Below, piece after piece: positions 1 to 1,971 of a stretch of DNA of 1,971 nt. The position numbers and the translations under genes were made by a program. The stretch is from NCBI RefSeq assembly GCF_003334385.1, contig NZ_QOWN01000105.1; one strand, written 5' to 3'. Source of the stretch: Escherichia coli. Lineage in GTDB: Bacteria; Pseudomonadota; Gammaproteobacteria; Enterobacterales; Enterobacteriaceae. How positions within the stretch are numbered: the first letter of the stretch is position 1; each line of letters starts with the position of its first letter. The notes beneath the pieces are model-generated. The model was not told where the DNA came from. It was given only the letters and a program-made list of their open reading frames with translations, and searched no databases.

Positions 1-1971
1 GCTGATACTGATGCCTGCGGTGGCTTTCTTCATCACCACAACCAGCAAATCGCTGATACTTGCTGTGGGATACCAGTCATTTACCAGCCATGCTGACACC
101 GAAAACTCCAGCGTCATGTGGCCGTGACCAGCTGGCATATCAATAACACCACTGTAAATCAGTGTATTATCCAGCGCGGTACGGTTATAAATTTCAGCAC
201 CATTTTTCTTCACTATCAGGCGGCATGACGAATAAATATCGTTATTCTCCCGCTCATGTTTAGCGCCGCAGAATGCCACCGCTGGAATAACAATTTGCCT
301 GTCAAAAGGCTGATCGTCATAAATCCTGACGGTAATGGTCCCTGATGGCCACCGCTCCGGTGCCCGGGAGTCCCGCGGGAAAGCCTTACCCACTGTTTTG
401 ACAATATCGCCTTCAATCTGATTGGCTGACAGTTTCCCCTTAATCTGACAGTTCTCATTAATCGTGACGTTGTTGAGCGTCCCGGAGTTCGCATTCACAC
501 TGCCACTGATATCCGCATTTTTAGCAGTCAGCTTTCCGTCCGGTGTCAGGGAAAATGCCGGTGGATTTCCACCGCTGGTAATGGTGGGGGCCGTCAGGCG
601 TTTCAGGAACACGTCGTTCATGAATATCTGATCGCCCTGACCAACAAACATCGGTTTTGTGTTGCCATTCGCAGGATTAACCATCGCAATCCTGTCCGCC
701 GCCAGCAGCACCTGACTCTGCATGCCGTCAGGGGTGTTCTCAATACCGGCACCAATACCCGCGATATAAAGGCGTCCGTCCTGCATCTGCTGCAGCTTCA
801 CAGCCCACATGCTGTTCAGGTTATTATTTGTATCAACCTGAACCTTCTGTATCTGCTGAATTGCCGCACTCTGGTCTTCCAGTTTCTTATTGACGGTCTG
901 CGTGATTTCATTGCTGACATCCGTAATGGACGTCCTGATTTCAGCCAGGTCAGGCGCAAGCTGACCGTTATCAATCTGCGTCCACAGCTCCTGAGCCAGA
1001 TGGGTTTTCCCTATCTCGCCTTTGAAAAAATCCAGATAGCCGGATGCATCATCACTCGGCTGACCAACAGCCTCCACGAATGCCGATTTGCCAACGGTGT
1101 TCACACTGCGAACGTAAAAATAATAATCATGGCCCGGTTTGATATTGATACTGGCGGCTATCCAGTACAGCGCCGTGCCAAGATAGCGGGCTGTGGTTTC
1201 AACCTGCCTGATATCGGTAATCCGCTTTTCCGAGAACCAGAACTCAAACTGTACCGTCGGGTCATAAACGGCAAGATGCGGCGTGGCGGTTATCTGAAAA
1301 TAGCCCGGCGTCAGCTCAATCCGCGACGGCACTGCAGGTGCGGCAATCCGGAACGATACCGACGCCGGATCGCCCTGCTGCCCCCACGCATTTACCGCCC
1401 GGACTGTCAGCCTGTAGTTCCCCAGCGCCAGCTGCCTGAAGCGGTATGTGGTTTCTGTCGTCCGGGCCGTGCTGACCAGCCGCTCACTGCCGTCATCCGC
1501 TGCCACGGTCAGGCGAAGCATAAAGCTCACACCCTTCACCACCTTCGGCGTATCCCAGCGCGCCAGCACCTGATATTCCCCGCTGTCTGCGGTGACTTCG
1601 GCGGTCAGGTGCTGCACCGCTGGCGGCGTGACACCATTCACCGTGCTGCTCTGGTCGCCGTCAAAGTGCGCCCCGTTATCCACGATGGCTTCTTTTTCCA
1701 GTACATGCTGCACGGCAGTGATGGCATACGTGCCGTCATCGTTCTCACGGATACTCACACAGCGGAACAGGCGCTGACGCAACGTCGGCAGCTTCAGCCC
1801 CCACACACTGTATTCTGCAACGCCATCAGGAACCCGGTTCACTTTCACCTTAAGTCCGTCGGTGACGGACTGAACCTCCACGCTGACCGGATTACCACTT
1901 CCGTCAACCAGGCTTATCAGCGTGGTACCGGAGGATGGCAGCGTGATTTCACGGTCGAGCGTCAGCGTCCG
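1..1971 (-). CDS. J: Phage tail tip / host specificity protein J (central tail fibre), internal to C-terminal portion; partial at both window edges
   Basis: Manual translation of the reverse complement in the frame starting at position 1971 gives 657 codons with no stop. The protein reads [78 protein letters not shown]...[27 protein letters not shown]...[155 protein letters not shown]...[35 protein letters not shown] recognise this from memory as the lambda gpJ family; the fibronectin-III-like repeats, helical stalk and C-terminal receptor-binding region fit that family. No start codon is present, so the N-terminal part must lie beyond position 1971, and the stop codon must lie before position 1. 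Confidence 0.9.

What the first reader, a model, noticed from the sequence alone, without database searches (positions are those of the whole stretch)
1057..1626. Two tandem fibronectin type III-like repeats in the J stalk
Two consecutive ~95-residue segments carry classic FN3 sequence hallmarks. The first (about 1339..1626, minus strand) reads [41 protein letters not shown]...[39 protein letters not shown]. The second (about 1057..1338) reads [38 protein letters not shown]...[37 protein letters not shown]. Both show a conserved Trp in the B strand region and the Y-x-Y/F-x-V-x-A/S-V-N-x-x-G motif typical of the F strand. FN3 modules are common in phage tail-tip and fibre proteins. Domain boundaries are approximate.
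Basis: partly seen in the sequence, partly recalled or inferred. Interest (0 to 1): 0.3.

Follow-up and report, generated by a model that had tools for sequence, protein, structure and literature searches.

The report
Known FN3 pair in lambda-type J

Summary
The whole window is one open minus-strand frame: the C-terminal 657 codons of a lambda gpJ homologue, aligning to lambda J residues 503-1131 (PDB 8IYK). The flagged stretch is residues 116-305, which is lambda J 618-807, and differs from lambda at 11 of 190 positions. Pfam has dedicated families for exactly these two modules: Ig_J (PF24421, E 6e-42, window 1336-1647) and Ig_J_second (PF24489, E 1.5e-39, window 1024-1332). An AlphaFold2 model (pLDDT 90.7) gives two seven-stranded beta-sandwiches. 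After lambda J itself, Foldseek returns only classic tandem FN3 pairs such as neogenin, fibronectin, titin, LAR and NCAM. Cryo-EM papers on lambda name them FNIII-1 and FNIII-2. In the J trimer they seal the distal cone of the tail tip, and they swing apart after receptor binding to open the DNA channel.

Three corrections apply:
- The generic Pfam fn3 model does not reach significance (E 0.11 and 1.9).
- The two domains are barely similar to each other in sequence and do not repeat at DNA level, so they are tandem domains rather than repeats.
- The Trp of domain 2 lies on the third strand of the model, not the second.

Verdict: observation confirmed, interpretation supported, already known, low interest.

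The parts
1336..1647 (-). FNIII-1 of the gpJ homologue (protein residues 109-212, lambda J 611-714). The beta-strand core is residues 120-209, window 1345-1614.
Evidence: Pfam Ig_J PF24421 E 6.3e-42, covering model positions 2-104 of 104. AF2 gives strands A-G at model residues 12-101.
1024..1332 (-). FNIII-2 of the gpJ homologue (protein residues 214-316, lambda J 716-818). The beta-strand core is residues 217-303, window 1063-1323. A short helix (residues 254-260) sits between the third and fourth strands. The C-terminal helix starting near residue 309 is the beginning of the alpha-helical shaft.
   Evidence: Pfam Ig_J_second PF24489 E 1.5e-39. AF2 strands at model residues 109-195. The model superposes on the solved FNIII-2 of 8XCJ at 0.7 A over 106 columns. 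8 of 94 residues differ from lambda J.
1381..1416 (-). F-strand 'tyrosine corner' motif of FNIII-1: [12 protein letters not shown] (residues 186-197).
   Evidence: The Gly and Tyr are nearly invariant (G76 and Y78 of alignment A1) and the Gly after the motif (G92) is invariant among homologues down to 28% identity.
1090..1125 (-). F-strand motif of FNIII-2: [12 protein letters not shown] (residues 283-294).
   Evidence: N183, G186 and S188 are invariant and Y175 and R180 nearly invariant in alignment A1. This is the only stretch that aligns with human fibronectin 10Fn3 (9 of 21 residues, E 0.006).
1555..1557 (-). Conserved B-strand Trp of FNIII-1 (W139).
   Evidence: Invariant column W31 in alignment A1. 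It lies in the second predicted strand.
1648..1971 (-). Upstream context: residues 1-108, which align to lambda J 503-610. In lambda this is the end of the hub domains (the beta-sandwich inserted in HDIV) plus the linker to FNIII-1.
   Evidence: Alignment to 8IYK. Domain description from PMC10721106.
1..1023 (-). Downstream context: the alpha-helical shaft (a divergent allele 28 aa longer than lambda's), the central straight fibre (Pfam Phage_Tail_Tip, residues 370-498) and the receptor-binding Ig-like domain (Ig_GpJ_C, residues 527-657).

Best explanation
[quoted passage not shown] Each is a seven-stranded FN3-type beta-sandwich. [quoted passage not shown] A three-helix bundle, the alpha-helical shaft, begins right after FNIII-2 and clamps the cone from below. 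When the C-terminal receptor-binding domain engages its outer-membrane porin, a twist travels up the central fibre and the helical shaft flips. The three FNIII strings then dissociate and swing to lie perpendicular to the hub domains, which lets the hub and the gpI plug open to about 3 nm for DNA exit. What is shown here: the identity of the sequence, the domain fold, the domain order and the homology. What is inferred: the gating mechanism, by transfer from the cryo-EM structures of lambda J, which is 94% identical over this span.
For: The window is one open frame aligning to lambda J 503-1131 (E 2.9e-302) and matches NCBIfam lambda_TipJ positions 503-1163. Pfam places Ig_J, Ig_J_second, Phage_Tail_Tip and Ig_GpJ_C in that order. 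The FN3 span is 93.8% identical to lambda J 611-818, with 13 substitutions. The AF2 model has pLDDT 90.7 and two 7-stranded sandwiches. Foldseek's top hits are 8IYK, 8K35, 8XCI and 9E7M (lambda tail tip in closed and open states), followed only by tandem FN3 pairs. PMC10721106 names the domains FNIII-1 and FNIII-2 and describes the closed cone enforced by the helix bundle. PMC11101478 describes their dissociation and repositioning on LamB binding. The closest genome record shows the lambda tail gene order: tape measure, M, L, K, I, J, lom, stf, tfa.
Against: Nothing contradicts the identification. The mechanism is transferred from lambda and was not tested for this allele. The helical shaft that clamps FNIII-2 is a divergent allele 28 residues longer than lambda's, and the receptor-binding domain differs from lambda's, so the details of signal transmission could differ. 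The generic fn3 Pfam HMM is not significant.
Confidence: 0.93

Rival explanations
1. The two FN3 domains act mainly as weak carbohydrate adhesins. They would bind LPS or other surface glycans to keep the tail tip near the cell surface, as proposed in general for Ig-like domains on phages (Fraser et al. 2006, cited in PMC10721106). Gating would be secondary.
For: PMC10721106 raises this possibility for these very domains. FN3 and Ig-like modules are widespread on phage surfaces. The phmmer search found the module, or its F-G motif, repeated 8-15 times in giant proteins.
Against: In the closed lambda tip the three strings pack against each other to form the sealed cone, and they move as part of the opening. 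No glycan-binding site or binding data for these domains appeared in the papers read. The module keeps a fixed position, at about residues 605-810, in full-length homologues down to about 32% identity, which fits a structural role.
Confidence: 0.12
2. The domains are only a passive spacer or linker that sets the distance between the hub and the central fibre, with no part in sealing or opening.
For: Tandem FN3 modules often act as rigid spacers in other proteins, as in the titin and contactin hits.
Against: [quoted passage not shown]
Confidence: 0.04
3. The FN3 hallmarks are a chance resemblance and the region has some other fold.
For: The Pfam fn3 HMM gives only E 0.11 and 1.9. Pairwise BLASTP against human 10Fn3 aligns no more than 21 residues.
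Against: The J-specific Pfam matches have E-values near 1e-40. The AF2 model is confident. Foldseek matches solved lambda J and dozens of FN3 pairs at probability 1.00. The motif is almost never produced by shuffling.
Confidence: 0.01

Closest known systems
Bacteriophage lambda gpJ FNIII-1 and FNIII-2 (PDB 8IYK, 8K35, 8XCI, 8XCG, 9E7M; Pfam PF24421 Ig_J and PF24489 Ig_J_second)
   Same: Same protein family, same position in the chain, 93.8% identical over 208 residues, same predicted fold (the model of FNIII-2 fits 8XCJ at 0.7 A) and the same flanking domains in the same order.
   Different: There are 13 substitutions: G611S, L653M, T659A, T681R, A716V, Q752R, A754T, S762T, T763A, I789V, R806Q, A807P and E812S in lambda numbering. 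The helical shaft that follows is a different, 28-aa longer allele, and the receptor-binding domain is not lambda's LamB-binding type.
Phage T5 baseplate hub protein pb3, C-terminal FNIII pair
   Same: According to PMC10721106 and PMC11101478, pb3 also carries two consecutive FNIII domains after the four hub domains, and after opening they lie perpendicular to the hub as in lambda.
   Different: In T5 the three strings are separated in the closed state and do not form a cone, and the central fibre and receptor binder are separate proteins (pb4, pb5). This comes from the papers only. No T5 comparison was run here, and pb3 was not among the top 50 Foldseek hits.
Canonical eukaryotic tandem FN3 pairs (neogenin FN5-6 4BQC, fibronectin 7B8 5N47, LAR 6TPV, titin A77-A78 3LPW, NCAM 2VKX)
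   Same: Seven-stranded sandwich topology, head-to-tail tandem arrangement, and the F-strand Tyr...V.A.N..G motif. Foldseek probability 1.00 over about 200-220 aligned columns.
   Different: Sequence identity is only 10-20%, and TM-scores of 0.35-0.50 reflect a different inter-domain angle. The Pfam fn3 HMM is not significant. FNIII-2 carries an extra short helix, and its Trp is on a different strand.
F2-pyocin tail fibre protein (PDB 25VF)
   Same: A distant J-type tip protein that aligns across the same region (query residues 1-354 to chain residues 508-862, E 2e-11).
   Different: Very divergent in sequence, and it belongs to a tailocin rather than a phage. It was not examined further.

Membership tests
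Lambda-type tip attachment protein J, FNIII-1/FNIII-2 module (Pfam PF24421 + PF24489) | Significant full-length matches to both J-specific Ig-like HMMs, adjacent and in order | tested here: met
   Ig_J residues 109-212, E 6.3e-42, model positions 2-104 of 104. Ig_J_second residues 214-316, E 1.5e-39, model positions 2-104 of 105.
Lambda-type tip attachment protein J, FNIII-1/FNIII-2 module (Pfam PF24421 + PF24489) | Position in the J architecture: after the hub domains and linker, before the helical shaft, central fibre and C-terminal receptor-binding domain | tested here: met
   The window aligns colinearly to lambda J 503-1131 and to NCBIfam lambda_TipJ 503-1163. Phage_Tail_Tip and Ig_GpJ_C follow downstream. 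The N-terminal 502 residues lie outside the window.
Lambda-type tip attachment protein J, FNIII-1/FNIII-2 module (Pfam PF24421 + PF24489) | Close sequence and structural match to the solved lambda domains | tested here: met
   93.8% identity. Foldseek E 1.8e-32 to 8IYK, and FNIII-2 at rmsd 0.7 A to 8XCJ.
Lambda-type tip attachment protein J, FNIII-1/FNIII-2 module (Pfam PF24421 + PF24489) | Gene sits in a lambda-type tail operon (H-M-L-K-I-J-lom-stf) | tested here: met
   Seen in the 99.9%-identical E. coli SCU-104 prophage record. The window itself holds only J sequence.
Lambda-type tip attachment protein J, FNIII-1/FNIII-2 module (Pfam PF24421 + PF24489) | Trimeric cone that seals the tail tip and dissociates on receptor binding | not testable with these tools
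   Known for lambda from PMC10721106 and PMC11101478. Transferred here by homology.
Fibronectin type III fold (Pfam fn3 PF00041; FN3 superfamily) | Significant match to the fn3 HMM | tested here: not met
   E 0.11 (residues 126-199) and E 1.9 (residues 276-297), both below significance.
Fibronectin type III fold (Pfam fn3 PF00041; FN3 superfamily) | Seven-stranded beta-sandwich of about 90-100 residues whose best structural matches are FN3 domains | tested here: met
   The AF2 model has 7 strands per domain at pLDDT 90.7. Foldseek ranks 7-50 are almost all named FN3/FNIII-domain structures (a few are FN3-type receptor ectodomains not labelled as such), at probability 1.00 and E 2.5e-9 to 1.2e-7.
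Fibronectin type III fold (Pfam fn3 PF00041; FN3 superfamily) | F-strand tyrosine-corner motif (Y-x-[hydrophobic]-x-V-x-A-x-N-x-x-G) | tested here: met
   Present once in each domain and conserved in homologues down to 28% identity. That this motif is typical of FN3 is my own knowledge of the fn3 consensus.
Fibronectin type III fold (Pfam fn3 PF00041; FN3 superfamily) | Conserved Trp on strand B | tested here: inconclusive
   Met in domain 1: W139 is invariant and on the second strand. In domain 2 the Trp (W245) is on the third predicted strand and is replaced by F or Y in some homologues.

The most novel reading that the evidence does not exclude
Besides sealing the tip, the exposed faces of FNIII-1 and FNIII-2 might bind a cell-surface glycan weakly. 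Allelic substitutions in FNIII-2 (8 of 94 residues versus 3 of 96 in FNIII-1) would then tune adsorption to different E. coli surfaces, in step with the swapped helical shaft and receptor-binding domain. Nothing found here supports this beyond the general hypothesis quoted in PMC10721106, and nothing excludes it.
Probability: 0.1. Interest if true: 0.3.

Novelty: already known. Interest (0 to 1): 0.08.

Why it matters
It matters little as a discovery. The domains, their fold and their role in tail-tip opening were published for lambda in 2023-2024, and Pfam already has a family for each. The practical value is correct annotation: the window is a J gene of a very common E. coli prophage type, with matches in 4620 of 5426 complete genomes. 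Its conserved hub-to-FN3 part is joined to a variable helical shaft and receptor-binding domain, which is the usual mosaic that sets host range.

Tried and rejected
- Generic Pfam fn3: not significant. The FN3 label therefore could not rest on that HMM, and I turned to structure.
- Are the two domains a recent duplication? BLASTP was marginal (31% over 49 aa), hhalign of the two sub-alignments gave probability 13.6%, and the DNA repeat search found only one 16-nt chance pair. Rejected: they are tandem domains of one fold, not sequence repeats.
- The search for related loci in viral contigs returned 80 loci, all 96-100% identical. These were useless for a diverse alignment, so I used the 50%-cluster representative search instead.
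- phmmer of the FN3 pair against PDB sequences at E up to 10 gave only J proteins, one Tie-1 FN3-region hit at E 0.62 and lactate dehydrogenase noise. Sequence alone does not link the pair to classic FN3.
- The + strand ORFs inside the region (41 and 61 aa) lie antisense to a strongly conserved coding frame and were not pursued.

Full report
**What the window is.** The 1971 bases contain no stop codon in minus-strand frame 1. The 657 translated codons align end to end with residues 503-1131 of bacteriophage lambda tip attachment protein J (PDB 8IYK, E 2.9e-302). They also match NCBIfam lambda_TipJ model positions 503-1163. All ORFs that lie wholly inside the window are short out-of-frame or antisense ones of 41-92 aa. 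At DNA level the window matches J genes of many lambdoid phages at 86-95% identity and 4620 of 5426 complete E. coli genomes. The best match is a 99.9%-identical prophage in strain SCU-104. That prophage has the classical order tape measure, M, L, K, I, J, lom, stf, tfa, and the window ends exactly at J's last sense codon.

**Checking the observation.** The motif Y-x-[YFLIV]-x-V-x-[AS]-V-N-x-x-G occurs exactly twice, as [12 protein letters not shown] and [12 protein letters not shown], 97 residues apart. In 200,000 shuffles of the protein it appeared even once only 5 times.

**What it is.**
- Pfam-A gives four strong, ordered matches: Ig_J (PF24421, residues 109-212, E 6.3e-42), Ig_J_second (PF24489, residues 214-316, E 1.5e-39), Phage_Tail_Tip (residues 370-498) and Ig_GpJ_C (residues 527-657).
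- The generic fn3 model (PF00041) reaches only E 0.11 and 1.9, which is not significant.
- To test the fold directly I collected homologues from the 50%-cluster protein library: 417 hits at E <= 0.001 and 74 at E <= 1e-30.
- I aligned 20 full-span sequences reaching down to 28% identity and predicted the structure of residues 109-316.
- The model has mean pLDDT 90.7 and two all-beta domains of seven strands each. Domain 1 strands span residues 120-209 and domain 2 strands span residues 217-303. Domain 2 has one short helix between its third and fourth strands, and a terminal helix starts near residue 309.
- Foldseek against the PDB returns the lambda tail tip first: 8IYK, 8K35, 8XCI and 9E7M at E 1e-32 to 1e-29, and FNIII-2 of 8XCJ at 0.7 A rmsd.
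- After those, ranks 7-50 are almost all named FN3-domain structures, mostly tandem pairs: neogenin FN5-6, fibronectin 7-B-8, LAR, contactins, titin A77-A78, NCAM, integrin beta4 and L1CAM. All are at probability 1.00, with E from 2.5e-9 to 1.2e-7 and about 200-220 aligned columns.
- The modest TM-scores (0.35-0.50) are what a different hinge angle between two rigid domains would give.

**Corrections of detail.**
- The two domains are not sequence repeats. BLASTP between them aligns 49 residues at 31% identity (E 8e-4 for a single comparison). A profile-profile comparison of the two halves of the alignment gives probability 13.6% over 26 columns, all around the E-F-G strands. The DNA shows no direct repeat apart from one 16-nt pair.
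The Trp of domain 2 (W245) lies on the third predicted strand and is F or Y in some homologues.
- In the published lambda nomenclature these domains form the closed cone at the end of the tail tube, above the helical shaft and the straight fibre, rather than the 'stalk' itself.

**How it works.** The mechanism is transferred from lambda, which is 93.8% identical over residues 109-316 (13 substitutions). [quoted passage not shown] PMC11101478 shows that the lumen narrows through the FNIII region until it is sealed. Binding of LamB to the receptor-binding domain twists the central fibre and flips the alpha-helical shaft. The three FNIII strings then dissociate, two going to one side and one to the other, and end up perpendicular to the hub domains. 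The hub and the gpI plug then open to about 3 nm. I adopt this as the best explanation: the pair acts as the sealing cone and as a movable coupling between the receptor-sensing fibre and the hub. The identification is shown here; the gating is inferred by homology. The main rival is weak carbohydrate adhesion, which PMC10721106 raises as a general possibility for phage Ig-like domains. I found no support for it and nothing that excludes it as a side function.

**Comparison and novelty.** This is a member of the lambda J family, and its two domains belong to the Pfam families built for exactly these modules. Membership in the FN3 fold class is supported by structure and motif but not by the fn3 HMM. 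Nothing about the finding is new, so I rate it 'already known' with low interest.

**Other things seen.**
- The segment just after FNIII-2 (residues about 318-395) is a divergent allele of the helical shaft with 28 extra residues relative to lambda.
- The receptor-binding domain is closer to the engineered 'A8 gpJ' chimera (PDB 9WCA; the variant tested against OmpC in PMC11338833) than to lambda's. It is still only about 57% identical to A8 over residues 527-657, so the receptor is unassigned.
- In the nearest genome record J is annotated as a frameshifted pseudogene next to a second partial J.
- The phmmer search also hit giant proteins with 8-15 matching stretches, which mostly match the F-G strand motif.

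Noticed in passing
window about 787-1020 (minus strand, residues about 318-395): The alpha-helical shaft that follows FNIII-2 is a divergent allele with 28 extra residues relative to lambda J (alignment gaps of 21 and 7 residues). That is about four extra heptads in the three-helix bundle that clamps the FNIII cone. A few phage records (for example vB_EcoS-640R1 and PhiR55_1) match the whole window, this stretch included, at about 94-95%.
   Followed up: partly
window 1-393 (minus strand, residues 527-657): The receptor-binding domain is not lambda's LamB-binding type. Its best solved relative is 'A8 gpJ' (PDB 9WCA, the gpJ variant used against OmpC in PMC11338833), but identity there is only about 57%, with indels in the loops. 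The receptor of this allele is unassigned.
   Followed up: partly
L081 5998-10905 (E. coli SCU-104, NZ_CP053284.1): In the 99.9%-identical genome record, J is annotated as a frameshifted, N-terminally incomplete pseudogene that abuts a second, C-terminally incomplete J fragment. This suggests a rearranged or recombinant J locus in that prophage.
   Followed up: no
proteins P0077, P0127, P0129, P0132, P0134: Giant proteins of 1331-2775 aa match the J FN3 pair in 8-15 separate stretches at about 29-34% identity. The one printed, P0129, is an array of Ig-like repeats built around a 'GLPDGVYTLTVQAVDALGNAGDPLTLTYTLIPPAP' unit that resembles the F-G strands of FNIII-1.
   Followed up: no
window 1210-1230 (minus strand, residues 254-260): The AF2 model places a short alpha-helix (DIRQVET) between the third and fourth strands of FNIII-2. 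This is an embellishment not typical of canonical FN3, and the stretch is shortened in several distant homologues (4-residue gap in alignment A1).
   Followed up: no
window 1448-1573 and 1592-1777 (+ strand): Two short antisense ORFs (41 and 61 aa, GTG starts) overlap the FN3 coding region. There is no evidence that they are genes, and they are most likely chance ORFs opposite a conserved frame.
   Followed up: no
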